A stretch of DNA of 64,000 nt from Thermoplasmata archaeon (GTDB taxonomy: Archaea; Thermoplasmatota; Thermoplasmata; UBA10834), in the NCBI GenBank assembly GCA_041554135.1, contig JBFFML010000003.1, positions 2,858-66,857 on the forward strand, read 5' to 3'. Both the position numbers and the translations under genes were made by a program. The first letter of the stretch is position 1; every line of letters begins with the position of its first letter. Shown here piece by piece: positions 2,602-57,195 of this stretch. The notes below the pieces were generated by a model. It saw nothing but the letters and a program-made list of their open reading frames with translations, searched no databases and was not told where the DNA came from.

Positions 2602-2604
2602 GTG

Positions 2605-2676
2605 TGCGGCTGCCGGGATTCGAACCCGGGCTTAAAGCTTGGGAAGCTTCAGTCCTAACCGCTAGACTACAGCCGC
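2605..2676 (-). tRNA. tRNA-Gly(CCC)
   Basis: The reverse complement GCGGCTGTAGTCTAGCGGTTAGGACTGAAGCTTCCCAAGCTTTAAGCCCGGGTTCGAATCCCGGCAGCCGCA folds into a full cloverleaf. It has a 7-bp acceptor stem, a GTCT/GGAC D-stem, a GAAGC/GCTTT anticodon stem with loop TTCCCAA (anticodon CCC), a CCGGG/CCCGG T-stem with TTCGAAT loop, and discriminator A. No CCA is encoded. Confidence 0.85.
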
Positions 2677-39005: not shown

Positions 39006-39176
39006 TCACGGGCCGGTGAATCCGCACTCTGGACAACGGTATTTCACGCTCTGGTCCCTGCATCTCGTGCATCTGCCGATCGTGGCTCTGCCACAGCTCG
39101 GACAGGGGAAGGTGGTCTCGGATGCTATCACGAGGCGCACCCCGCAAGATGAACAAGCCCTTTCCTGGCTACTCAA
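39006..39176 (-). CDS. small Zn-ribbon protein (COG2888-like double CxxC), TTG start
   Basis: MSSQERACSSCGVRLVIASETTFPCPSCGRATIGRCTRCRDQSVKYRCPECGFTGP has four CxxC pairs. It lies immediately upstream of ef1b, which is the conserved archaeal arrangement. The remainder of the long track ORF 39006-39446 is not coding. Confidence 0.55.
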   Translation of the reverse strand: MSSQERACSSCGVRLVIASETTFPCPSCGRATIGRCTRCRDQSVKYRCPECGFTGP

Positions 39177-39210
39177 GCTCTTCGACCTCGAAGCTGAGGA
39201 ATATGCTATC

Positions 39211-39220
39211 TGTATATAAC
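39211..39220 (-). promoter_or_regulatory. TATA box (gTTATATAca) for the Zn-ribbon/ef1b operon
   Basis: It lies about 35-40 nt upstream of the TTG at 39176. Confidence 0.4.
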
Positions 39221-39566
39221 ATCTGCTGATTGCCCGCGAAGAGGGTCTTCCGACGTTCGGGAGCACGTGGGGCACTGAAAGTTGTCCGAACGAATGGCGG
39301 ACGGTAGCGTCGCCCGCACTTGTGTGTGCCGCGATGCGAGGTCCGCGCTCTCCCGGGGGATCGAGCTCCGGGCGACACGTCCAGCATCTTGTGCGGTCCG
39401 CTGTTGAATGAGTACTGACAAGCCCCCGCACGGCAAGCCGTCGCAAGCGTAAGGTTGATATCCTTTATGGAGAAACACGCCTTTTATAAGCTTTCAATAA
39501 TTATACGAACGGAGATTTAAATCCGACAATCGTAGTCGTCGGCCCGAGACCCCGAAATCGTAGGAT

Positions 39567-39578
39567 GTATTAAATATC
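39567..39578 (+). promoter_or_regulatory. TATA-like box (GTATTAAATATC) upstream of tRNA-Lys
   Basis: It lies about 55 nt upstream of tRNA position 1. Further TATA-like elements lie at 39483-39523. Confidence 0.35.
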
Positions 39579-39629
39579 AGAATGGACTACACGCCCTGCT
39601 GAAGCAGCCTCGGGTATCTCGCCGCCCAC

Positions 39630-39773
39630 GGGCCCGTAGCTCAGCTAGGTAGGAATCTCATGCATTCTCCGTGTATAAGACTCCCTAGAAAGAGCATCTG
39701 CCTTTTAAGCAGGTGGCCCGGGGTTCGAATGACTATGCCTTACAGACTAGTCTCGGAAATCCCCGCGGGCCCG
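39630..39773 (+). tRNA. tRNA-Lys(UUU) precursor with two apparent non-canonical introns (D-arm and T-loop 59/60)
   Basis: Exons: GGGCCCG-TA-GCTC-AGCTAGGTA(G), then an insert of about 39 nt, then GAGC-A-TCTGC-CTTTTAA-GCAGG-TGGCC-CGGGG-TTCGAA(T), then an insert of about 30 nt, then CCCCG-CGGGCCC-G. The reassembled 73-nt molecule has perfect acceptor (GGGCCCG/CGGGCCC), D (GCTC/GAGC), anticodon (TCTGC/GCAGG, loop CTTTTAA) and T (CGGGG/CCCCG, loop TTCGAAT) stems. It closely resembles the M. jannaschii tRNA-Lys. Confidence 0.7.
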
Positions 39774-39850
39774 CTCGGCGGCGGCCCCAGCGTTCCTGAG
39801 TCTGGAGCGAATTTGACAGATCCTCGAGTGGCTGGTCCTGCGTCTACGGG

Positions 39851-40120
39851 GTGAGTATCAGAATGACCGAAGAGTTCAACGTTCTGGAGCATGAGCTCGT
39901 TCCTGAGCATCATCTGCTGACGGATAAGGAGGTCGACAAGGTTTTGGGAGACATCGGACTGACGAAGGACCAGCTCCCCCGGATCAGATTGTCCGACCCG
40001 TGCATACGGGCTCTGGACGCCGTAAGCGGCCCTGTCGAGGAAGGAATGATCATCAAGATCGTAAGGCGCAGCGAGACAAGCGGTATGTCCGTGTGCTATA
40101 GACTCGTCGTGCGAGGGTAG
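39851..40120 (+). CDS. rpoH: DNA-directed RNA polymerase subunit H (Rpb5-like)
   Basis: The 89-aa protein ...[43 protein letters not shown]...[23 protein letters not shown] has the RpoH/Rpb5 C-terminal domain signature. Confidence 0.85.
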
Positions 40121-40124
40121 AATC

Positions 40125-43100
40125 ATGAGAGAGCTTGTCGAGACTTACTTCAGGGAGCGGAGCATAGTCAACCACCACATCGCGTCGTACAACGACTTCC
40201 TCCCAACGCTTGATCATCCCAACAGCAGGATGCAGAAGATCGTGGACAACGTCAGGGCGTCCCCTGACGAGGCCTATCGCGGCGTGATACGTCTGGACCC
40301 CGACAGGACCGAGGGCAAGATGATAGAGATACGCCTCGGGAGGAAGAGGGACGAGAAGACCGGCCAGATCGACGCCAACGCGAGGCCGACCATCTCCGTC
40401 GGCCGGCCCATCATCAAGGAGGCCAACGGCGCGACGCACTCGCTCTTCCCAATGGAGGCGAGGCTGAGGAACCTCAACTACTCCGCGCCCATCTCCCTCG
40501 AGTTCACCGTGCTGGAGGACGGCATCGAGCGCGAGCCCGAGAAAGTGCACATCGGGGACCTGCCGGTGATGGTCAAGTCGAAGAAGTGCAACCTCCACAA
40601 GGACAACATCGACATCGACCGCGAGCCGACTGACGCGGAGATGGAAAAGTTCCTCGCATCGATGGGCGAGGACCTGTGCGACCCAGGCGGGTATTTCGTC
40701 ATAGGCGGGACGGAGCGCGCCCTGATATCGCTCGAGGACCTGGCTCCCAACAGGGTGATGGTCGAACTCAACGAGAGGTACGGCACGAGCCTCCATGTCG
40801 CGAAGGTGTTCTCCCAGAGGGAGGGCTACCGCGCGCTCACGCTGATGGAGAAGAAGAAGGACGGCGTCCTCGTCGTGTCCGTGCCCGCGGCGTCCGGACA
40901 GATACCTCTGATGGTGCTGATGAAGGCGCTCGGCATGGAGAGCGACGAGGAGATCTACAAGTCGATAGTCTCCGACCCTCAGATGGCGAACATCGTGTAC
41001 GCCAACATCGAGGAGTGCCAGAACAAGAAGCTGTATCCGCCGAACGGCATATTCACGACAGAGGACGCGATACTCTACCTCGAGCGCAAGTTCGCCACGG
41101 GCCAGGCGAAGGAGTACAGGGCGAAGAAGGTCGAGAGCATAATCGACAGATCGCTTCTGCCTCACCTAGGCGACACGTCCGACGTGCGTCTGAAGAAGTC
41201 GATATTCCTTGGCAGGGTCGCGAGGACGATCCTGGAGATGGAGCTCGGCAAGAGGAAGGAGGACGACAAGGACCATTACGCCAACAAGCGTCTGAAGCTC
41301 GCGGGGGACCTGATGGAGGACCTGTTCCGCGTCGCGCTCACGAACCTCATTAAGGATCTCAAGTACCAACTCGAGAGGGGCTACACACGGAAGAAGGGCC
41401 TGAGGATATCGTCGGCAATCAGGCCGGACCTGCTGACGCACAGGCTGCTCCACGCGTTCGCCACCGGCAACTGGGTCGGAGGAAGGGCGGGTGTGTCACA
41501 GCTTCTCGACAGGACATCGAACATGAGCGCCCTGTCGCACCTGAGACGCGTGACGTCGCCGCTGACGCGGAGCCAGCCGCACTTCGAGGCGAGGGACCTG
41601 CATCCCACCCAGTGGGGGAGGCTCTGTCCCAACGAGACGCCGGAAGGTCAGAACTGTGGCCTGGTGAAGAACTGCGCCCTCATTGTGGACGTGTCGGAGG
41701 GGACCGACGAGAAGGAGATCATCTGGCTCCTGCGGGACCTCGGCGTCAGGGAGGTCAGCGAACATCAGACCACGGAGACGAGGGTATACACGAACGGGGA
41801 CCTGATCGGCCTGCACGACAAGCCGCGCGAACTCGTGGAGGAGATACGCCAGAGGCGCCGGTCGGGCCTGCTATCGTCGGAAGTCAACATACGGTTCGAC
41901 CTCAACATGAACGAGATCATAATCAACTGCGACGAGGGGAGGCTGAGGCGGCCGCTGCTCGTCGTGAGGAACGGCAAGACGCTGCTCACCCGGAGGCATC
42001 TCGAGGACATGCACTCGGCGAAGGCCAGATGGTCGGAGCTGATACGGGAGGGCGTCGTCGAGTGGGTGGATGCTGAGGAGGAGGAGGATTCCTACATCGC
42101 GGTGTCCGCGTTCGAGACTCCCGAGAGCTGCGAGCACTGCGGCAAGATACTGTCCGAGATCGACGTCGACTGGCGGAACCCCGGCGAGGGCGGGAAGGTC
42201 GTGCTCGAGTGCAAGTCGTGCGGCGGCACGAGCCAGGTCGATTCGCTCCTGACGGAGGACCACACGCATCTGGAGATAGACTCCATGGTCATACTTGGCG
42301 TCTGCTCCGCGGTGGTCCCGTATCCGGAGCATAATTCGAGCCCGAGGGTCACGATGGGCTCGGGCATGGCCAAGCAGTCGCTCGGCCTCAGCTCGTCCAA
42401 CTTCAGGATCCGGCCGGACACGAGGAGCCACATACTCCACTATCCGCAGAAGCCGCTCGTGACGACGAAGCCCATGGAGTTCGTCAGCTTCGACAAGAGG
42501 CCCGCGGGTCAGAACTTCGTCGTGGCGATACTCTCGTACCAGGGGTACAACATGGAGGACGCGGTCATCATGAACAAATCGTCGGTCGAGCGCGCGCTCG
42601 GCAGGTCGACGTTCATGAGGACTTACAGGGCGGAGGAGCGCAGATACCCAGGAGGGCAGGAGGACCATTTCGAGATCCCGAGCCCGGATGTCAGGGGCGC
42701 CCGCGCGGACCTCTCGTACAGCAACCTGGGCGAGGACGGCCTGATCAGTCCCGAGACCCTGGTCGAGGGCGGCGACGTGCTCATAGGCAAGACATCGCCT
42801 CCGAGGTTCCTGGAGGAGGAGGCCGACTTCCTCACGCCTCAGAAGAGGCGGGAGACGTCGGTCACCGTCCGTCCAGGGGAGAAGGGCTGGGTCGACAGCG
42901 TGATGCTCACGGAGTCCGAGAACGGCTCACGCCTCGTGAAGGTCAAGGTCAGGGACGAGCGGACGCCGGAGCTGGGCGACAAGTTCGCGTCGAGGCACGG
43001 GCAGAAGGGCGTCGTCGGACTGCTGGTCGACCAGCATGACATGCCGTTCACTGAGGACGGCGTCGTGCCGGACCTGCTGATCAACCCGCACGCCGTGCCG

Positions 43101-43711
43101 TCGAGGATGACCGTCGCGCACGTGCTCGAGATGATCGGCGGCAAGGTCGGCTCGATGGAGGGGCGCGTGATCGACGGCACATCCTTCAGCGGGGAGCGCG
43201 AGGAGGCCCTCAGGGACGCCCTCGTCAAGAACGGGTTCAAGCACAACGGCAAGGAGGTCCTGTACGACGGCATAACCGGCAGGATGATCGAGGCCGAGGT
43301 GTTCATCGGCGTGATATACTACCAGAAGCTGCACCACATGGTCTCTGGGAAGCTGCACGTGAGGAGCCGAGGCCCCGTGCAGATACTCACGAGGCAGCCG
43401 ACGGAGGGTCGCTCGAGGCAGGGCGGCCTGAGGTTCGGCGAGATGGAGAGGGACTGCCTGATAGGCCACGGGGCGGCGATGGTCATACGCGACAGGCTCC
43501 TGGACGAGTCCGACGGGACGCTGCAGTACGTCTGCGGCAACCCGAGCTGCGGGCACATAGCGATCCTGGACAGACGAGGGTCGTTCAGGTGTCCCGTCTG
43601 CGGCAACAACTCGAAGATATACCAGGTGCAGACGTCGTACGCGTTCAAGCTCCTGCTGGACGAGCTCCTGTCGCTTGGGGTCGTCATGCGCCTTCAACTG
43701 GAGGACCTGAA

Positions 43712-43715
<4 letters not shown>
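40125..43715 (+). CDS. rpoB: DNA-directed RNA polymerase subunit B (unsplit, 1196 aa)
   Basis: Rpb2 homology runs along the full length ([13 protein letters not shown], ...[24 protein letters not shown]..., C-terminal Zn ribbon CGNPSCGH...CPVCGN). It is a single ORF, not split into B'/B''. An extra CxxC...CxxC module lies at about aa 660-705 (CEHCGK...CKSCGG). Confidence 0.95.
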
Positions 43716-48222
<4,507 letters not shown>

Positions 48223-50595: not shown

Positions 50596-53500
50596 GTGGA
50601 AGTATCGTTGGCTGAGACAAGGGATGATCCTCCTAGGCCTCTTCTGTCCGGGCTTTTCCGCAGGGGTGGAGGACCTAACGAGTTCATGAAGTGGCTCGGG
50701 GCGAACTGGGCGCCATTGGCCATGCTCATATTCATATTCCTACTCGCGCTGTTCGTGCGCTCGTTCTTCGCCTTCGAGATCAGCGCCGACAACGACTACA
50801 TCGTCTCCGGCGGGTCCGACTCGTACTACTGGCGCAGGATCATCGACTATCATGTTGACACGGGCGATTCCATGTACTGGGACTCGCTGATCAACTTCCC
50901 GATTGGCATCAGGAACCCGAGGCCGCCACTCTACAGCATGTCCGTCGCGGTGCCGGCCGTGGCGGTGTCGGACCTGTTCGAGAGCATGAGCGACGCCGTC
51001 GGGTTCATGTTCGTGTGGTCGACGGCCTTCTGGGGCGCGCTGACCGTCATCCCGGTCTACTTCCTGGGGAAGGAGACGTTCGGCAGACGGGCGGGCCTGG
51101 TAGCGGCCTTCCTGCTGGCGCTTATGCCCAGCCACGTCCAGAGAAGCGTGCTGTCCAACGCGGACCACGACGCGTTCATCCTGTTCTTCATAGTCCTGAC
51201 CTTCTACTTCATGCTGAAGGCCGTGACGGAGCAACGTCATGATAGATGGGTGGGCAGTTGGAAGAGCCGGTCGAGTATCTCGGCTGGGCTCTCAACTTAC
51301 TTCTCCGATAGCAGGACGGCCATCCTGTACGCCCTCATGGCAGGGATGTCCTTCGGCTGCGTCATCATGGCCTGGGTCGGCTTCGCCTACGTGGCCGTGC
51401 TCATGCTCGCCTATCTGCTGGTGCAGGTACTGATCAACAAGTTCAAGAACATCGACTCTACGAGCGTAACGATGCTCGTGCTCATCACGATGGGTTTCGG
51501 CTACCTGCTGGCGTTCCCGGTGTACTACGAGCAGTCGCTTATCGCGACCAGGTTCGATGTCCCCGTCTACCTCTTCGCCGGGGCGATACTCGTCGCGGCG
51601 TTGTTCGTCATCACGAGGGACTATCCATGGACGATCACCCTGCCGGCGATCGTCGGTACGCTGGTCGTCGGCGTCCTCGCGATAAGCGCGTTCTACCCCG
51701 CGCTCGGAGAGGCCATAATGACGGGCCAGGGATACTTCGTGCAGAGCAAGCTATACTCCACCATCGCGGAGGCGCGCGCGCCTGAGTTCAGCGAGTTGGC
51801 GATGGCCTTCGGCATGGTCACGTTCTTCGTGTCGCTCATAGGCCTCATCTACGCCGTGACGAGGATACCCAAGCAGACGTCTGCAGGGTCGACATTCATG
51901 ATCGTCTGGCTCGCGGCGGCCATATTCATGGCGATATCCGCTGGCAGGTTCATGTTCAACGCCGCGCCCGCTTTCGCAATCGCGGCCGGCTGGGTCCTCG
52001 TGATCATGGTCGACAAGATAGACTTCGCTGGCGTCGTGAAGTCGATGAAAGGCGCCAGCGGCTCGTTCCTGCAGGTGTTCAGGAAGAGCGTGAAGATACG
52101 CCATGTGACCGCGGCGCTGTTCCTGGCGTTCTTCATCGTGGTGCCGAACGTGTGGTTCAGCGTGGACGCGGGCATACCGGCGGAGACCAAGCGGGAGTAC
52201 GACAAGCAGATATACAACAGCTTCCCCGAGTTCATGAGACCCGCGGGCTACGACACCCACAACGGTTCGAACTGGTATCTCGGCGCCTTCGGTTTCTCGT
52301 TGCCGTTGCCCTCGCAGTACTATCCCGCGGCATGGGACTGGTTCTCGGAGCAGGATTCCGACATCTACCCCGAGACGACACGTCCGGCATACGTCGCCTG
52401 GTGGGACTACGGTTTCGAGGCGGTCGAGGAAGGCGACCATCCGACCGTCGCAGACAACTTCCAGAACGGGTACCAGGTGGCCGGTAACATCATAATGGCC
52501 CAGGGCGAGGACGACGCGATCGCGCTGTTCTCCCTGAGGCTAATGCAGCATGTCTACGTCACCGACGAGGACATGAAGGAGCGCATAGTCGCTTTGTTGG
52601 AGAAGCACGGGGTCGCGAGCGACGACATCGACTACACATTCACGGGCCCCGCGCAGGAGATCATAGACGCCGTGCTCGACGACCCTGAGAAGTACGGACC
52701 CATGGCCAGCGATATGAGCGCGACGAACGCCAGGCTGGTGTACGGTCGGGAGGTGCTATCGAGCATAGGCCTTGAGCCGTTGGTCGCTTTCTACGACGAG
52801 CTCTGCGAGCTCCTCAGCTGGGAGATACGATACTTCAATGTCGACTCCAGGATGTTCCCCTCGTCCGCCACCAACCCGGGGATATTCTACGCCCCGGCCA
52901 AGTTGGCGGACAGGCGTATACTCGGAGGGTCCATCCCGGTGGACTTCTTCGAGATCAAAGCGGTCACCGACCAGGGCCAGACAATCGCCCTCGAGGACGT
53001 GACGAGCAACATGAGGATAGTCGATTACTCGATAGAGTACAAGGACATGTTCTACGACAGCCTGTTCTACAGCGCCATGTGCGGCTTCAGCGGCGACGAC
53101 ATCGGCCTGGAGAAGAAGGGACTCCCGGGAATGAGCGGCACGGTCTCCACGCAGGAACCGATGCCCGGCTGGAACATGACGCATTTCAAGCTGGTCTACA
53201 GGACGAGCTATTACAACCCGTACCCAGCCGACCTCGTGCCGTTCCACCAGGACGCGTGGAGGGCCGTCAGCTACGACGAGGCCCAGGAGCTCGCGAAGGA
53301 GATACGCGCCGGCGACATCGAAGGCGTGATCGACCAGAGTGCGAGGTCGCTGTACATGAGCGGCACGGTCTTCCTGAAGTACTATCACGGAGCCTACCTG
53401 AACGGTACGGTCACGACCGAGGATGGCAAGGTCGTCGCGGGAGCGCGCGTCACCATACAGGACGAGTACGGCATACCGCACGACACGTGTCTGACGGACG

Positions 53501-56500
53501 ACGACGGCGCCTACTCGCTCCTCGCCCCGTTCGGCAACCTGTCGCTCGTCATCTCGTCTGGCGACGCCGCGCTCAACACGAGGCTTGAGGGAAGCACGGT
53601 CATCGCGGAGTTCGATGTCGACGTCACGGACGACCAGTCGATGAGGGTGAGGCAGGACCTCGACCTCGACGGCGTGTACGATTACATCATCACCAAGGAT
53701 TGCACGGTTGGCAGCGGGGAGGTCATGGGGGACGTGTTCTGGGACCTCAACTTCGACGGCGAGTATTCGCTGACAGACGACGACCTCATACCCGAGGGGA
53801 CGGTCTACTTCGAGAACAAGGTGAGCGGGGAGGAGGCATCAGTCGAGTTCTCGGAGGGTTTCTACACCGTCCCACTGCCGCCAGGTCAGTACAGGGTGTA
53901 CGCTAACGTGCTCGGCACGGAACTTACGATGTCGCTCCAGGAGAACGTGACCTCGGGCAAGAAGAGCGAGGTCAACCTGGCCGTGAAGCCGGCCATGCTC
54001 AAGGGCAACGTCACGACTGCCGACGGCGTCCCCGTCGCCGGCATGGAGCTCGCGCTCAGGAACGCCTTCTTCGACACCGAGTTCACGGCCGTGACGAACG
54101 CGACGGGCGCATACATCTTCTCGAAGGTCATAGGCGGCAAGTACACCCTGTCGACCGAGGATCCGGAACTCATCGTCTTCAACGCGTTGATATCGCTCGA
54201 TGTGGAGTCCGTCGAGGAGAGGGATGTCACCGTGTTCGAGAGGCGGAGCGTGAAGTTCAGGGTGTCTCTCGACGGCGTCCCGGTGCCTTACGCGCCCTAC
54301 ACGATCCACAACATGTACTATCCGAACGAGTACATCTCCGGCGTGACGGACAGATATGGGTGGGTCAAGGCCGACCTGTCGAAGGGGTACTGGTCCATAT
54401 ACTCCGTGTACAGCGACGGCGCCGAAGACTACGCCGGGTACGTCGGATTGGACCTCTACTACGAGGATAGCGCGGCGGGCACCATCGCGCTCGAGCCGGC
54501 CTTCACCGTCGAGGGCAGCCCGAGGTTGTCCGGACCGTACGGGCTCATCAGGGACACGTTCGTCGTGTTCGTCGCCGAGGATGGCGCGAGACTGTTCTTC
54601 AGGACCGACAACCTGGGCAACTTCGACACCCGTCTCCCAGAGGGGACCTACGATGTGCTCTGCTGGGCCGTGTCGGGGTCGAGCGTGCTCTCGGAGACGT
54701 TGACGGTCGATGAGGACCTCACAGGCCTTAGGCTGTACGCAGAGGGCAGCGTGATCGTCACCGGAAGCGTCTGGCTCGACGAGGACAGTTCGGGGTCGAG
54801 GGGAGCTTCCGAGCTCGGCGCCTTCGCGTTGCTCGAGGTCACCGACGCCTATGGCAGGACATACGCGACGAGGGCGGACCACGGGGGCGACTACAGGTTC
54901 CTCGTGGTCAAGGGCATGAGGGTCACATTCACAGTCGCCGACCCGGGCTACTCCGGATGGAGCATGAGCGCCCTGTACGGCAACGAGGCGAAGAACGTCA
55001 CGCTGTTCGCGACACCGGACGATGTGGTCGTCTCTGGGTGCGTCATACACGACGGCGCAGGCGTGAGGGGCGTCGAGGTGGCGTTCCTGCCGGACACGAT
55101 AGCCAAGGAGGCGATATACGTGGTGACGGGCACCGGGGGTTACTACACCGCGCATGTGCCTCCGGGCGACTACACCATCCTCGTCGACGATGACGTGGGC
55201 GTCATCGGGGGCGAGGTACTGCAGTTCGAGGCCGAAGAGACCATCGAGCCGACCGGCGAGGTCGTGCTTTACGACATCTATCCCGCGCGCAGGGTCCAGA
55301 TCTCCGGCAACGTGCTCGGAGCGGCGGAGGTGACGGAGGTCAGGATGGACGGCCCGGAGGAGGTCGTCGTCGACATCGACGGGTTCACATACAGCGCATG
55401 CGTCATCCCAGGTACATATCACATATACGCCTCAGGAATGACGGACGACACCGTGCTGGCGGGCGTGCTCAAGGTCTATGTCCAGGCAGGCGCGACACAG
55501 TTCGACGTGTACCTGGACGAGGCACGCGAAGTGTCGGGCGTGGTGTACATCGACTCCGCCCCGGCGACGAGCGCCGTCGCCATCTCCGTGTTCACGGAGG
55601 ACGGCGCCAAGGTCGCGGCTGTGACGTCTGTGACGGGCGCGTTCAGCCTTCACCTCCCGTCCGGCAGCTACGCGTTCACCTACAGCCTCGAGTCCACCAG
55701 CGTCGAGGACGGCCGGACGCTGTACGTGGAGTACGTCTCATCCGAGATGGTCAGCGTCGCCTCGTCGAACGTCACTCTGAGCCCGCACCTGGAAATGCGG
55801 CTCGACAACACGACGCTCACGGGAACGGTCACCGACGCCGACGGTGCGCCTGTCCAGGCGCAGATACAGCTCACCCCCAACACTCGGTATGGGCTCGCGG
55901 CGACTTTCTACACCGACGCCTCGGGTGACTTCGAGGCGTGGATACAGCCGGGAGACTATACCGTGTACGTCAAGCGGTCGCAGGATGCCAGCGTGTCGCT
56001 CGGCTTCGTCGGGATATCGAGGAACGAGGCCAAGGACCACGATGTGCAGGTGTCCGAGGGGAGGTTCCTGTCCGGTAGGATCACGGCCGGCGGATACCCC
56101 GTCGCCGGCTCGTTGACGGTCTCGTCGGGCGACGCCTCGCTGAGTGTCTCGAGCGACGCCGACGGCTACTTCAGGTCGCTGCTGCCGCAGGGCTCCTACG
56201 TCGTCTCGTCGAGCACGCAGAGGACGGAAGGCGGGATGACCATCCGGTACTCGCTCACGACGACCGTGGACCTGGGGTCGTTCGACCGCTATGTCAACCT
56301 CAAGCTCAACAGGGAGAACACTCGGTCTGTGACGGCCAGCTGGAACGCCTCCCTGGCGCTGCCGGCGGGCGTCGGCCAGACCGTCACCTATGTGTTCGTC
56401 GTGGAGAACACGGGCAACGTGGGGGACGACTTCGAATGCCGGTTCATGGGCACCGGGTTCGACGTGACCTTCGTGCCTGAGAGCCAGTTCATAGATTTCG

Positions 56501-57195
56501 GGACGAACGGGAACACCGCCACCTTCGTCGCCCAGGTGACGGTCCTCGAGGACGCTGTCGCTGGCGACACCCCTGTCCCGATCCAGATGCGGTCCGAGAC
56601 GTCGTCGAGCGCACGGGCAGACCTGGAGCTCATCGTCAAGGTGCCGCCCGTGTATTCCACGGAGGTGACGACGGTAGATGAGGAGGGGGCGTCGGTCGTC
56701 GGCGACACGACGAGGACGCTCATACATGTGATTAACACCGGCAACACGCAGGCCGAGTACGATCTGGCCATAACGAACCTCGAGTACCTCGTGAGCCGCG
56801 GTTGGAGCGCGCGGGCGATGCTCACGGGCTCCGGGGAGGAGGTCGGTGTCATGAATATAGAGTACCAGGGTCACAGGGAGATATACATCGAGTTCACGTC
56901 CATCAGGAGTGACCCCGACCCGAAGGCGGAGGCGACGGTCCTCGTGTGGTCCGTCGCGGACCCAGGGCAGACCACGGTCGCCTCGATACCCATCATCCTC
57001 CCGGACATCAGCATCGGCCCCGGAGGCCTGGATGTCGTTCGGGACGACTTGACATACGAGTACGATCCATCCGACCTGTACATCAACATCGGCCTGGTCT
57101 GCGCAATCGGCGCCCTGGTCGCCATGTTCGTGTTGCTCAGGCGGAGGAAGGGCCTCGGCGGCCTCAGGAAGAAGGGCAAGGGTGATAAGCGATGA
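50596..57195 (+). CDS. aglB: oligosaccharyltransferase AglB/STT3 fused to a C-terminal region of about 1300 aa carrying S-layer-like beta-sandwich repeats and a membrane anchor (2199-aa ORF; probable start ATG 50686)
   Basis: The N-terminal 13-TM core has the EL1 acidic motif region and WWDYGFEAVEEGDHP (WWDYG) at about aa 600. From about aa 900 onward there are at least 8 carboxypeptidase-regulatory-like repeats (GTVTTEDGKVVAGARVTIQDEYG..., GNVTTADGVPVAGMELALRN..., GTVTDADGAPVQAQIQL..., GRITAGGYPVAGSLTVSS...). CARDB/DUF11-like units follow (VTYVFVVENTGNVGDDF, IHVINTGNTQAEYDLAI), ending in a TM helix plus RRRKGLGGLRKKGKGDKR. The ORF is continuous. Confidence 0.85.
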   Translation: MEVSLAETRDDPPRPLLSGLFRRGGGPNEFMKWLGANWAPLAMLIFIFLLALFVRSFFAFEISADNDYIVSGGSDSYYWRRIIDYHVDTGDSMYWDSLINFPIGIRNPRPPLYSMSVAVPAVAVSDLFESMSDAVGFMFVWSTAFWGALTVIPVYFLGKETFGRRAGLVAAFLLALMPSHVQRSVLSNADHDAFILFFIVLTFYFMLKAVTEQRHDRWVGSWKSRSSISAGLSTYFSDSRTAILYALMAGMSFGCVIMAWVGFAYVAVLMLAYLLVQVLINKFKNIDSTSVTMLVLITMGFGYLLAFPVYYEQSLIATRFDVPVYLFAGAILVAALFVITRDYPWTITLPAIVGTLVVGVLAISAFYPALGEAIMTGQGYFVQSKLYSTIAEARAPEFSELAMAFGMVTFFVSLIGLIYAVTRIPKQTSAGSTFMIVWLAAAIFMAISAGRFMFNAAPAFAIAAGWVLVIMVDKIDFAGVVKSMKGASGSFLQVFRKSVKIRHVTAALFLAFFIVVPNVWFSVDAGIPAETKREYDKQIYNSFPEFMRPAGYDTHNGSNWYLGAFGFSLPLPSQYYPAAWDWFSEQDSDIYPETTRPAYVAWWDYGFEAVEEGDHPTVADNFQNGYQVAGNIIMAQGEDDAIALFSLRLMQHVYVTDEDMKERIVALLEKHGVASDDIDYTFTGPAQEIIDAVLDDPEKYGPMASDMSATNARLVYGREVLSSIGLEPLVAFYDELCELLSWEIRYFNVDSRMFPSSATNPGIFYAPAKLADRRILGGSIPVDFFEIKAVTDQGQTIALEDVTSNMRIVDYSIEYKDMFYDSLFYSAMCGFSGDDIGLEKKGLPGMSGTVSTQEPMPGWNMTHFKLVYRTSYYNPYPADLVPFHQDAWRAVSYDEAQELAKEIRAGDIEGVIDQSARSLYMSGTVFLKYYHGAYLNGTVTTEDGKVVAGARVTIQDEYGIPHDTCLTDDDGAYSLLAPFGNLSLVISSGDAALNTRLEGSTVIAEFDVDVTDDQSMRVRQDLDLDGVYDYIITKDCTVGSGEVMGDVFWDLNFDGEYSLTDDDLIPEGTVYFENKVSGEEASVEFSEGFYTVPLPPGQYRVYANVLGTELTMSLQENVTSGKKSEVNLAVKPAMLKGNVTTADGVPVAGMELALRNAFFDTEFTAVTNATGAYIFSKVIGGKYTLSTEDPELIVFNALISLDVESVEERDVTVFERRSVKFRVSLDGVPVPYAPYTIHNMYYPNEYISGVTDRYGWVKADLSKGYWSIYSVYSDGAEDYAGYVGLDLYYEDSAAGTIALEPAFTVEGSPRLSGPYGLIRDTFVVFVAEDGARLFFRTDNLGNFDTRLPEGTYDVLCWAVSGSSVLSETLTVDEDLTGLRLYAEGSVIVTGSVWLDEDSSGSRGASELGAFALLEVTDAYGRTYATRADHGGDYRFLVVKGMRVTFTVADPGYSGWSMSALYGNEAKNVTLFATPDDVVVSGCVIHDGAGVRGVEVAFLPDTIAKEAIYVVTGTGGYYTAHVPPGDYTILVDDDVGVIGGEVLQFEAEETIEPTGEVVLYDIYPARRVQISGNVLGAAEVTEVRMDGPEEVVVDIDGFTYSACVIPGTYHIYASGMTDDTVLAGVLKVYVQAGATQFDVYLDEAREVSGVVYIDSAPATSAVAISVFTEDGAKVAAVTSVTGAFSLHLPSGSYAFTYSLESTSVEDGRTLYVEYVSSEMVSVASSNVTLSPHLEMRLDNTTLTGTVTDADGAPVQAQIQLTPNTRYGLAATFYTDASGDFEAWIQPGDYTVYVKRSQDASVSLGFVGISRNEAKDHDVQVSEGRFLSGRITAGGYPVAGSLTVSSGDASLSVSSDADGYFRSLLPQGSYVVSSSTQRTEGGMTIRYSLTTTVDLGSFDRYVNLKLNRENTRSVTASWNASLALPAGVGQTVTYVFVVENTGNVGDDFECRFMGTGFDVTFVPESQFIDFGTNGNTATFVAQVTVLEDAVAGDTPVPIQMRSETSSSARADLELIVKVPPVYSTEVTTVDEEGASVVGDTTRTLIHVINTGNTQAEYDLAITNLEYLVSRGWSARAMLTGSGEEVGVMNIEYQGHREIYIEFTSIRSDPDPKAEATVLVWSVADPGQTTVASIPIILPDISIGPGGLDVVRDDLTYEYDPSDLYINIGLVCAIGALVAMFVLLRRRKGLGGLRKKGKGDKR

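What the first reader, a model, noticed from the sequence alone, without database searches (positions are those of the whole stretch)
39630..39773. tRNA-Lys(UUU) apparently interrupted by two non-canonical introns (D-arm and T-loop 59/60), sitting directly upstream of the rpoH-rpoB-rpoA operon
A 144-nt segment begins GGGCCCGTAGCTCAGCTAGGTA and ends CCCCGCGGGCCCG. Removing two inserts of about 39 nt and about 30 nt leaves a perfect 73-nt tRNA-Lys. All four stems and a canonical TTCGAAT T-loop are intact, and it is almost identical in outline to methanogen tRNA-Lys. Both inserts sit at non-canonical positions: the D-loop/D-stem junction and between T-loop positions 59/60. This pattern is known mainly from Thermoproteales-like and a few deep-branching archaea. 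It is unexpected in a genome that otherwise looks euryarchaeal or Thermoplasmatota-like. The second insert contains the palindrome GACTAGTC. The gene lies 77 nt upstream of rpoH.
Basis: seen in the sequence. Interest (0 to 1): 0.7.

Follow-up and report, generated by a model that had tools for sequence, protein, structure and literature searches.

The report
Two-intron lysine tRNA gene, conserved
This is a real, functional-looking lysine tRNA gene split by two short protein-spliced introns in its D-loop and T-loop; the arrangement is inherited across many uncultured Thermoplasmata and is a known kind of feature, though it is under-reported in this group and invisible to standard tRNA finders.

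Summary
The 144-nt segment (window 39630-39773, + strand) is as described. Removing a 40-nt insert (39651-39690, between tRNA positions 20/21) and a 30-nt insert (39730-39759, positions 59/60) gives a 74-nt tRNA-Lys(UUU), not 73 nt. This product has the same 74-nt length and the same D-loop and T-loop as intron-less orthologs at the same place upstream of rpoH in other Thermoplasmata.

[quoted passage not shown] The T-loop motif is near-canonical. The D-loop motif is relaxed: its 3' splice site lies in a 2x3 internal loop. Of 72 orthologs parsed by one rule, 50 are interrupted at the same one to three sites (D-loop, anticodon 37/38, T-loop), and 11 carry all three introns.

BHB helices covary, while intron sequences diverge. 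Exons are invariant in the window's clade (0/1110 differences, against 11-18% in introns). This rules out a pseudogene and an assembly artefact.

A sister genome with the three-intron gene encodes a 351-aa splicing endonuclease with two complete units and no known specificity loop.

It is a new member of a known kind. Interest is moderate, centred on how a loop-less euryarchaeal endonuclease handles the relaxed D-loop motif.

The parts
39570..39577 (+). TATA-like box (TTAAATAT), about 60 nt upstream of the tRNA 5' end; putative promoter of the tRNA and probably of the downstream rpo genes
   Evidence: An AT-rich box of the same type (ATTAAATA/ATTATATA/TTTAAATA) lies at -40 to -62 in most orthologs. 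No AT-rich box lies between the tRNA and rpoH. Function is inferred, not shown.
39619..39626 (+). 5' leader segment (TCGCCGCC) complementary to the 3' trailer at 39777-39784
   Evidence: RNAduplex of leader against trailer gives -34 kcal/mol, z = -1.7; the pairing is stronger in sister clades. Side observation; no BHB geometry.
39630..39650 (+). Exon 1: acceptor 5' strand, nt 8-9, D-stem 5' strand, D-loop nt 14-20
39645..39648 (+). 5' strand (CUAG, D-loop nt 16-18) of the 4-bp central helix of the intron-1 BHB; pairs with 39685-39688
   Evidence: Forms in the unconstrained MFE. Three of its 4 pairs show compensatory changes across 37 distinct cores.
39649..39651 (+). 5' splice-site bulge of intron 1 (G19 U20 | A); a clean 3-nt bulge with cleavage after U20
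39651..39690 (+). Intron 1 (40 nt), D-loop position 20/21
   Evidence: Excising it restores the D-loop AGCUAGGUA found in intron-less orthologs. Helix B (GGA..UCC and extension) covaries at 6/6 pairs.
39689..39691 (+). 3' splice-site 'bulge' of intron 1 (A A | A21). It lies opposite unpaired A14-G15, so it is a 2x3 internal loop (relaxed BHB)
   Evidence: The same arrangement is seen in 47/47 orthologs with this intron.
39691..39729 (+). Exon 2: A21, D-stem 3' strand, anticodon arm (anticodon UUU at 39704-39706), variable loop, T-stem 5' strand, T-loop nt 54-59
39724..39727 (+). 5' strand (UUCG, nt 54-57) of the central helix of the intron-2 BHB; pairs with CGGA at 39754-39757
   Evidence: Four of 4 bp form in 42/43 orthologs.
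39728..39730 (+). 5' splice-site bulge of intron 2 (A58 A59 | U)
   Evidence: In the window clade one extra U (39753) lies opposite this bulge.
39730..39759 (+). Intron 2 (30 nt), T-loop position 59/60; interior hairpin GACUA/UAGUC
39758..39760 (+). 3' splice-site bulge of intron 2 (A A | U60); a clean 3-nt bulge directly abutting the T-stem
39760..39773 (+). Exon 3: U60, T-stem 3' strand, acceptor 3' strand, discriminator G73 (CCA not encoded)
39863..40120 (+). rpoH (RNA polymerase subunit H / Rpb5 C-terminal domain)
   Evidence: Pfam PF01191, E = 9e-26.
40125..43715 (+). rpoB, unsplit, 1196 aa; followed by rpoA' (ORF 43589-46498 as listed from its first in-frame GTG; true start undetermined, presumably near the rpoB stop) and rpoA'' (46470-47948)
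   Evidence: Pfam Rpb2 domains 1-7 and Rpb1 domains 1-5.

Best explanation
The segment is the functional gene for tRNA-Lys(UUU) of an uncultured Thermoplasmata archaeon related to Methanomassiliicoccales.

It is transcribed as a precursor of at least 144 nt, probably from a TATA box about 60 nt upstream and possibly together with rpoH-rpoB-rpoA. In the precursor, each insert folds back on the adjacent exon to form a bulge-helix-bulge motif. In the D-arm, D-loop nt 16-18 pair with the 3' end of intron 1. In the T-arm, U54-G57 pair with the 3' end of intron 2, which copies the canonical anticodon-arm geometry shifted by 22 nt.

The archaeal splicing endonuclease (EndA) cuts two nucleotides into each 3-nt bulge, after U20, before A21, after A59 and before U60. 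An RtcB-type ligase then joins the three exons into a 74-nt tRNA. RNase P, RNase Z and the CCA-adding enzyme finish it.

What is shown here: the anatomy, the exact splice product, covariation of the BHB helices, purifying selection on the exons, and vertical inheritance.

What is inferred: the enzymology (established archaeal pathway), that EndA handles the relaxed D-loop motif, and co-transcription with rpoH.
For: 1. The unconstrained MFE of the 144 nt forms acceptor, D, anticodon and T stems plus both intron helices with flanking 3-nt bulges.
2. The exact 74-nt product is called tRNA-Lys(ttt) by ARAGORN with a canonical cloverleaf. It has the same 74-nt length and the same D-loop (AGCUAGGUA) and T-loop (UUCGAAU) as intron-less orthologs at the same locus, and 81-100% identity to all orthologous mature sequences (mean 90.5%). 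Those intron-less orthologs score 69-75 bits with Rfam tRNA.
3. One fixed parsing rule turns 72 orthologs into 74-nt tRNAs (one is 73 nt). The architectures are D+T 29, none 22, D+AC+T 11, D 4, D+AC 3, T 3.
4. D-intron BHB core: 94.2% of cells are paired, against 78.3% in shuffles (0/500 reach the observed value) and 28-48% when the partner is slid. The central helix has 3/4 pairs and helix B 6/6 pairs with compensatory changes.
5. Central helices form in the MFE of 80% (D-loop intron) and 88% (T-loop intron) of real genes, against 0% and 1% with shuffled introns.
6. All 41 distinct T-intron interiors are hairpins of unrelated sequence, mean z = -2.9.
7. In the window clade, exons show 0/1110 differences, while introns differ at 17.8% and 11.3%.
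8. Intron pattern follows the RpoB tree.
9. Identical sequence is found in the independent assembly GCA_041561375.1, and its 3' part in a Logan read assembly.
10. A sister genome (CP070751.1) that holds the three-intron ortholog encodes an EndA with an intact catalytic triad.
Against: No RNA data exist, so splicing itself is not observed.

The D-loop motif is not a strict BHB. Its 3' splice site lies in a 2x3 internal loop in all 47 orthologs. In vitro, an A. fulgidus alpha'2 EndA and the loop-less M. kandleri EndA removed the analogous M. kandleri D-loop (20b/21) intron inefficiently (PMC5829648).

The window organism's own EndA and ligase were not seen. There is no EndA in the window or in the 80 loci; its type is inferred by phylogenetic bracketing.

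The rest of the genome could not be scanned for a second tRNA-Lys(UUU).
Confidence: 0.88

Rival explanations
1. It is a tRNA-Lys pseudogene disrupted by two insertions and no longer produces a working tRNA.
For: Standard tools do not recognise it. The rest of the genome was not available to exclude another tRNA-Lys(UUU).
Against: Exons are invariant (0/1110 differences) while the inserts diverge at 11-18% within the clade. The inserts keep BHB pairing through compensatory changes. The same interrupted gene sits at the same syntenic position in about 50 species spanning roughly 60-96% RpoB identity, and intron-less orthologs occupy that position elsewhere.
Confidence: 0.03
2. The T-loop insert is a normal EndA intron, but the relaxed D-loop insert is cut poorly or not at all by the lineage's endonuclease. 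Its removal would then need another factor, an ordered pathway or alternative folding, or it would act as a throttle on tRNA-Lys (and rpo operon) maturation.
For: The D-loop 3' splice site lies in a 2x3 internal loop in 47/47 orthologs. The EndA of the sister genome lacks any insertion at the CSL site. Loop-less EndAs cleaved the analogous M. kandleri D-loop intron inefficiently in vitro (PMC5829648).
Against: The D-loop intron is the most widespread of the three (47 of 50 interrupted orthologs) and is kept in an apparently essential gene. Its central helix and clean 5' bulge are strictly maintained by covariation, which argues that the BHB is read by EndA. Literature statements on specificity rest on a few enzymes, none from this family.
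Confidence: 0.07
3. The inserts are not removed, and the 144-nt RNA (or part of it) functions as an expanded tRNA-like or regulatory RNA at the head of the RNA polymerase operon.
For: The tRNA lies immediately upstream of rpoH with no separate promoter-like box between them. Leader and trailer are complementary.
Against: The inserts sequester G18 and U54-G57, which are needed for the D-loop/T-loop tertiary interaction. The exons, not the inserts, are the conserved part. Sister lineages have a plain 74-nt tRNA at the same place.
Confidence: 0.02

Closest known systems
Methanopyrus kandleri pre-tRNA-Glu(UUC): a two-intron euryarchaeal tRNA with a relaxed HBh' intron in the D-loop at 20b/21 plus a canonical intron (PMC5829648)
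   Same: It is euryarchaeal and multi-intron. Its D-loop intron sits immediately before A21 on a relaxed BHB in which the D-stem cannot abut the central helix. The endonuclease has alpha- and beta-like units and no specific loop.
   Different: Here the second intron is in the T-loop (59/60) rather than at 37/38, although 14 orthologs also have a 37/38 intron. The isoacceptor is Lys. The two endonuclease units are naturally fused in one 351-aa chain, whereas in M. kandleri they are two genes. The arrangement is conserved across a whole class rather than being a single-species case.
Multi-intron tRNA genes of Thermoproteales and Thaumarchaeota (Sugahara 2008; Fujishima 2010; summarised in PMC4033280 and PMC8450103)
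   Same: They carry up to three short BHB-flanked introns at non-canonical positions, including the D- and T-arms. Intron sequences evolve fast while BHB helices are kept.
   Different: Those lineages have (alpha-beta)2 EndA with the Crenarchaea-specific loop, and introns in many tRNA species, with evidence of intron transposition. Here I could document only one gene, the host is a 'Cluster II' euryarchaeon, and the EndA lacks that loop.
Non-canonical introns already tabulated for Methanomassiliicoccales by tRNAscan-SE 2.0 (PMC8450103, Supplementary Table S7: 3 genomes, 13 canonical + 6 non-canonical introns, 1 two-intron gene)
   Same: Same broader clade and same kind of feature. This shows the phenomenon is not unprecedented there.
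   Different: That table lists no three-intron gene in any of 144 Euryarchaeota and gives no positions or conservation. Here, 11 three-intron and 32 two-intron orthologs of one gene are documented, with covariation and phylogenetic distribution.
Canonical archaeal 37/38 tRNA intron (hBHBh' motif; Marck and Grosjean 2003, cited from my own knowledge)
   Same: The T-loop intron reproduces the geometry exactly: a 5-bp stem, a 4-bp central helix made of the first four loop nucleotides, and cleavage after loop nucleotide 6.
   Different: It is located in the T-arm, so the central helix uses the invariant U54-U55-C56-G57. In the window clade, one extra unpaired U lies opposite the 5' bulge.

Membership tests
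tRNA-Lys(UUU) | Cloverleaf with 7-bp acceptor, 4-bp D, 5-bp anticodon and 5-bp T stems; anticodon UUU in a 7-nt loop; GG in the D-loop; UUCGAAU T-loop | tested here: met
   ARAGORN on the exact spliced product plus CCA calls tRNA-Lys(ttt). All stems are already present in the precursor MFE.
tRNA-Lys(UUU) | Orthology with recognised tRNA-Lys genes | tested here: met
   It occupies the same position upstream of rpoH as intron-less tRNA-Lys(ttt) genes, which are called by ARAGORN and score 69-75 bits with Rfam tRNA. The mature sequence is 81-100% identical to all orthologous mature sequences, intron-less and spliced (mean 90.5%).
Archaeal EndA-dependent (BHB) tRNA intron | Two 3-nt bulges on opposite strands separated by a 4-bp helix, with the splice sites two nucleotides into each bulge | tested here: met
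   T-loop intron: T-stem | AAU bulge | UUCG/CGGA | AAU bulge | GACUA/UAGUC, with one extra U opposite the 5' bulge. The same geometry is seen in 43 orthologs, and 16 of 41 distinct interiors are fully flush, i.e. strict.
Archaeal EndA-dependent (BHB) tRNA intron | The same strict motif for the D-loop intron | tested here: not met
   The central 4-bp helix and the 5' 3-nt bulge are present. The 3' splice site, however, lies in a 2x3 internal loop (AAA opposite A14-G15) in 47/47 orthologs. It therefore qualifies only as a relaxed BHB (HBh'/hBH class), like the M. kandleri 20b/21 intron.
Archaeal EndA-dependent (BHB) tRNA intron | Pairing maintained by compensatory substitutions between exon and intron strands | tested here: met
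   9 of 14 pairs have double changes, the covariation score is 0.447 against 0.155 in shuffles, and slid controls give 0.08-0.13.
Archaeal EndA-dependent (BHB) tRNA intron | The genome encodes a splicing endonuclease with the Tyr-His-Lys triad (and an RtcB ligase) | tested here: inconclusive
   It is not in the window or the 80 loci. It is present in sister genome CP070751.1, which has the three-intron ortholog: a 351-aa, N-C-N-C protein with Y290/H298/K329. It is also present in named Methanomassiliicoccus MAGs. The ligase was not searched for.
Archaeal EndA-dependent (BHB) tRNA intron | Spliced mature RNA and excised (often circular) introns detectable | not testable with these tools
   No transcriptome data were available.
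Split or permuted tRNA genes | Exons encoded at separate loci or in permuted order | tested here: not met
   All three exons are contiguous and collinear within 144 nt.
Self-splicing group I/II intron in tRNA | An intron of a few hundred nt or more with a ribozyme core | tested here: not met
   The inserts are 40 and 30 nt. Rfam finds no match even at E<=1.

The most novel reading that the evidence does not exclude
Methanomassiliicoccales-related Thermoplasmata routinely splice a relaxed, HBh'-like D-loop BHB, and up to three introns per tRNA. They would do so with a naturally fused structural-plus-catalytic two-unit EndA (351 aa) that has none of the known specificity loops (CSL/ASL). That would mean broad substrate specificity arose in 'Cluster II' Euryarchaeota by a different structural route from the one in Crenarchaeota, DPANN or ARMAN. 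It would contradict the current view that this group has only narrow-specificity alpha'2 enzymes.
Probability: 0.35. Interest if true: 0.65.

Novelty: new member of a known kind. Interest (0 to 1): 0.45.

Why it matters
**Annotation.** ARAGORN and Rfam miss this gene completely. Two- and three-intron orthologs give no Rfam hit even at E<=1, and single-intron ones reach only about 30 bits. MAGs of these lineages will therefore appear to lack tRNA-Lys(UUU), which affects tRNA-based completeness estimates and codon-usage inferences.

**Evolution.** One orthologous gene at a fixed genomic position shows every combination of 0 to 3 introns across a well-sampled class. That makes it an unusually clean system for dating tRNA intron gain and loss.

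**Mechanism.** The literature places Thermoplasmata among euryarchaea with narrow-specificity alpha'2 EndA (PMC5829648, PMC6379350). The universally relaxed D-loop motif, together with a two-complete-unit, loop-less EndA in a sister genome, gives a concrete and testable challenge to the model that a specific loop confers broad specificity.

Tried and rejected
- **ARAGORN and Rfam on the raw window** (gathering score and E<=1) found only tRNA-Gly(CCC). This is expected for non-canonical introns and is not evidence against the gene.
- **ARAGORN on thousands of alternative excisions** is too permissive to fix splice sites. The sites were fixed by BHB geometry and by orthologs instead.
- **Bacterial promoter/terminator scan** is irrelevant for an archaeon and was replaced by an AT-box comparison.
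- **Leader-trailer complementarity as a possible fourth BHB**: z-scores are only moderate, there is no bulge-helix-bulge geometry, and it is absent in several intron-bearing clades. It is kept as a side note.
- **MFE prediction of the anticodon-intron central helix:** 0/14 formed. These are AU-rich CUUU/AAAG helices, and 11 of 14 are 4/4 complementary by inspection, so I treat this as a limitation of energy-based folding.
- **EndA search.** There is none in the window or loci. The first profile (A3) returned only alpha4- and Archaeoglobus-type hits. P0016 turned out to be ARMAN-like. Seed P0261 retrieved only 6 relatives. Charge filtering did not separate lineages. Success came through the 50%-representative search plus cluster names and contig lengths.
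- **The EndA of CP070732.1,** the closest complete genome (96% RpoB identity), was not recovered.
- **Literature searches** for the CP0707xx accessions, and for Methanomassiliicoccales together with tRNA intron, found nothing.
- **RpoB tree.** Five loci (L013, L016, L027, L033, L040) sit on spurious long branches because the longest ORF picked was not rpoB. They are ignored for tree-based statements.

Full report
**Observation.**
The 144-nt string is present at window 39630-39773 on the + strand. ARAGORN and Rfam find only an unrelated tRNA-Gly(CCC) at 2604-2676 in the whole 64-kb window, even at E<=1. Removing two internal segments makes ARAGORN call tRNA-Lys(ttt) over a wide range of boundaries. 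So the tRNA body is real, but ARAGORN alone cannot fix the splice sites.

**Anatomy of the precursor.**
The unconstrained minimum-free-energy fold of the 144 nt (-56.1 kcal/mol) forms the acceptor, D, anticodon and T stems. It also places each insert on a helical extension of its arm.
- D-arm, read 5' to 3': D-stem GCUC/GAGC; A14-G15 unpaired opposite AAA; a 4-bp helix CUAG (nt 16-18) with CUAG (intron 3' end); a clean 3-nt bulge G19-U20-A; then helix GGA.../...UCC.
- T-arm: T-stem CGGGG/CCCCG; a clean 3-nt bulge A-A-U60; a 4-bp helix UUCG (nt 54-57) with CGGA; bulge A58-A59-U, with one extra U opposite; then hairpin GACUA/UAGUC.

In a canonical 37/38 intron, the cut falls two nucleotides into each 3-nt bulge (established knowledge of the BHB motif). 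Applying that rule here gives cuts after U20, before A21, after A59 and before U60. The resulting parts are exon 1 at 39630-39650, intron 1 at 39651-39690 (40 nt), exon 2 at 39691-39729, intron 2 at 39730-39759 (30 nt) and exon 3 at 39760-39773. The mature tRNA is 74 nt, and ARAGORN calls it tRNA-Lys(ttt) with a standard cloverleaf. The T-arm geometry is the anticodon-arm geometry shifted by 22 nt, which explains why 59/60 is a natural site.

**Context.**
The downstream genes are rpoH (Rpb5-C), an unsplit 1196-aa rpoB, rpoA' and rpoA''. Upstream are a malic enzyme, a radical-SAM protein and an HVO_2753-type zinc-finger gene. RpoB places the window in uncultured Thermoplasmata. The nearest genome is CP070732.1 at 96% identity, and Methanomassiliicoccales are at about 76%.

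**Orthologs.**
In the 80 syntenic loci, a tRNA-Lys(UUU) gene lies upstream of rpoH in nearly all that extend far enough. With one fixed parsing rule (introns only at 20/21, 37/38 and 59/60), 72 genes reduce to a 74-nt tRNA (one to 73 nt). The architectures are:
- 22 uninterrupted
- 29 with D+T introns, including the window
- 11 with D+anticodon+T introns
- 3 with D+anticodon introns
- 4 with the D intron only
- 3 with the T intron only

. Uninterrupted orthologs read GCTCAGCTAGGTAGAGC and TTCGAATCC, exactly the junctions predicted for the window gene.

Orthologs also remove the positional ambiguity caused by repeated A and T at the window's junctions. The first intron base varies (A, T or C), while A21 and U60 are always supplied from the 3' side.

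**Is the BHB model more than a fit?**
- On 37 distinct D-intron cores, 94.2% of cells are paired. Column shuffles give 78.3% (0/500 reach the observed value), and sliding the partner strand by 1-3 columns gives 28-48%.
- Three of the four central-helix pairs covary (CUAG/CUAG, GUAG/CUAC, CCCG/CGGG, CCAG/CUGG). All six helix-B pairs show compensatory double changes.
- In unconstrained folds of 49 distinct full-length genes, the central helices form completely in 80% (D) and 88% (T). With shuffled introns the figures are 0% and 1%.
- The T-intron exon strand (UUCG) is invariant, so its partner can only toggle A/G.
- All 41 distinct T-intron interiors are hairpins of unrelated sequence, mean z = -2.9. 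Sixteen are flush on both sides, i.e. strict hBHBh'.
- The 14 anticodon introns have the canonical layout.
In L005 it is GACCAGTC, with a compensating G in the 5' strand.

**Functional gene or relic?**
Among six members of the window's clade (87-96% RpoB identity), the exons show 0 differences in 1110 compared positions. Intron 1 differs at 17.8% and intron 2 at 11.3%. The identical interrupted sequence is present in an independent MAG (GCA_041561375.1), and its 3' part in a Logan read assembly. Intron pattern follows the RpoB tree:
- the window clade is D+T
- its sister clades are D+A+T or D+A
- Methanomassiliicoccus is D+T
- Methanomethylophilaceae, Thermoplasmatales and DHVE2 have none
- distant soil and halophilic clades are D+T

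This fits ancient introns that were inherited vertically and lost repeatedly. It excludes both a pseudogene and an assembly artefact.

**Strict or relaxed motif?**
The T-loop motif is near-canonical. The D-loop motif is relaxed in all 47 orthologs, because the universally conserved A14-R15 keep the D-stem from abutting the central helix. The 3' splice site therefore lies in a 2x3 internal loop. The closest described case is the HBh' intron at 20b/21 of M. kandleri pre-tRNA-Glu. A. pernix (alpha-beta)2 EndA removed that intron, but A. fulgidus alpha'2 and the loop-less M. kandleri enzyme removed it only inefficiently (PMC5829648).

**The endonuclease.**
- Neither the window nor the loci encode EndA.
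- A 50%-representative search seeded with a Geoglobus alpha'2 enzyme, cluster names and a family profile led to a large family of about 351-aa proteins. Its named members are tRNA-intron lyases of Methanomassiliicoccales, Methanomassiliicoccus sp. and Thermoplasmata.
- One member, P0312, is encoded on CP070751.1, the chromosome that carries the three-intron ortholog L024.
- Its Pfam architecture is N-C-N-C.
- Its best solved relative is the artificially fused beta-alpha M. kandleri enzyme 5X89, aligned over the whole length (E = 1.7e-38). This is far better than its match to A. fulgidus (7e-22) or T. acidophilum alpha'2 (1.6e-19, C-terminal part only).
- Unit 1 aligns end to end with M. jannaschii EndA but has Phe and Pro in place of the catalytic Tyr and His. 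Unit 2 keeps Tyr290, His298 and Lys329. There is no insertion at the site of the Crenarchaea-specific loop.
- The window clade is bracketed in the RpoB tree by lineages with this enzyme. I therefore infer, but have not shown, that the window's organism has the same type.
- Other Thermoplasmata MAGs carry shorter forms of 314-322 aa. One of them (P0261, 314 aa) aligns with the A. fulgidus alpha'2 enzyme across both repeats.

**What is known already.**
Multi-intron tRNAs with BHB motifs at non-canonical positions are well described in Thermoproteales, Thaumarchaeota, Nanoarchaeum, Korarchaeum, ARMAN, M. kandleri and M. thermautotrophicus (PMC4033280). The tRNAscan-SE 2.0 paper tabulates 6 non-canonical introns and one two-intron gene in 3 Methanomassiliicoccales genomes. 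It lists no three-intron gene among 6970 euryarchaeal tRNA genes (PMC8450103, Table S7). I found no paper that pairs Methanomassiliicoccales with tRNA introns or describes their EndA.

The window feature is therefore a new member of a known kind. What goes beyond the literature I could read:
- the class-wide conservation of this particular split gene
- the three-intron orthologs in Euryarchaeota
- the association with a two-complete-unit, loop-less EndA

**Verdict.**
The most likely mechanism is EndA cleavage at two BHB motifs followed by RtcB-type ligation (confidence 0.88). The main open point is how the relaxed D-loop motif is recognised. Interest is 0.45.

Noticed in passing
window 39570-39577 and 39774-39862: A TATA-like box (TTAAATAT) lies 60 nt upstream of the tRNA. 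Similar boxes lie at -40 to -62 in most orthologs. No AT-rich box lies between the tRNA and rpoH. In Methanomethylophilaceae loci an ATG follows the tRNA after about 12 nt. The tRNA may be the first element of the rpoH-rpoB-rpoA transcript.
   Followed up: partly
window 39619-39626 with 39777-39784: The 5' leader (TCGCCGCC) and 3' trailer (GGCGGCGG) are complementary and would extend the acceptor stem beyond a small internal loop. Longer and stronger leader-trailer duplexes occur in sister clades (L011, L015, L019, L026, L036, L055; z = -2 to -4) but not in Methanomassiliicoccus or the intron-less lineages. No BHB geometry was seen.
   Followed up: partly
loci L011, L013, L015, L016, L017, L019, L020, L021, L024, L026, L041: Orthologous tRNA-Lys genes carry three introns (20/21, 37/38, 59/60) and are 164-226 nt long. 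The tRNAscan-SE 2.0 survey lists no three-intron tRNA gene in 144 Euryarchaeota.
   Followed up: yes
L083 3001-4056 (CP070751.1) and L084 3001-4056 (CP070767.1): The splicing endonuclease of Methanomassiliicoccales-related Thermoplasmata is a 351-aa fusion of two complete units. Unit 1 has lost the catalytic Tyr and His, and unit 2 is intact. It is closest to the engineered beta-alpha fusion of M. kandleri EndA (5X89) rather than to the truncated alpha'2 of Thermoplasma or Archaeoglobus, and it has no CSL-type insertion.
   Followed up: partly
L001, L011, L032, L055 (Rfam control): Rfam's tRNA model gives no hit at E<=1 for two- and three-intron orthologs, and only partial hits of about 30 bits for single-intron ones. 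Intron-less orthologs score 69-75 bits. These genes are likely missing from routine MAG annotations.
   Followed up: yes
L002 (CP070736.1, 93% RpoB identity), upstream of rpoB: This close relative has a different upstream region, with no tRNA-Lys within the 550-nt stretch examined upstream of rpoB. The gene must lie elsewhere in that genome or be lost.
   Followed up: no
window 2604-2676 (-): An ordinary uninterrupted tRNA-Gly(CCC) (69.5 bits) is the only other tRNA-like signal in the 64-kb window.
   Followed up: yes
window 39006-39446 (-): The gene immediately upstream of the tRNA, on the opposite strand, encodes a small protein with an HVO_2753-like zinc-binding domain (PF07754, E = 5e-15).
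   Followed up: no
window 50596-57195 (+): A very long ORF (2199 aa) lies downstream of the rpo genes. It was not examined.
   Followed up: no
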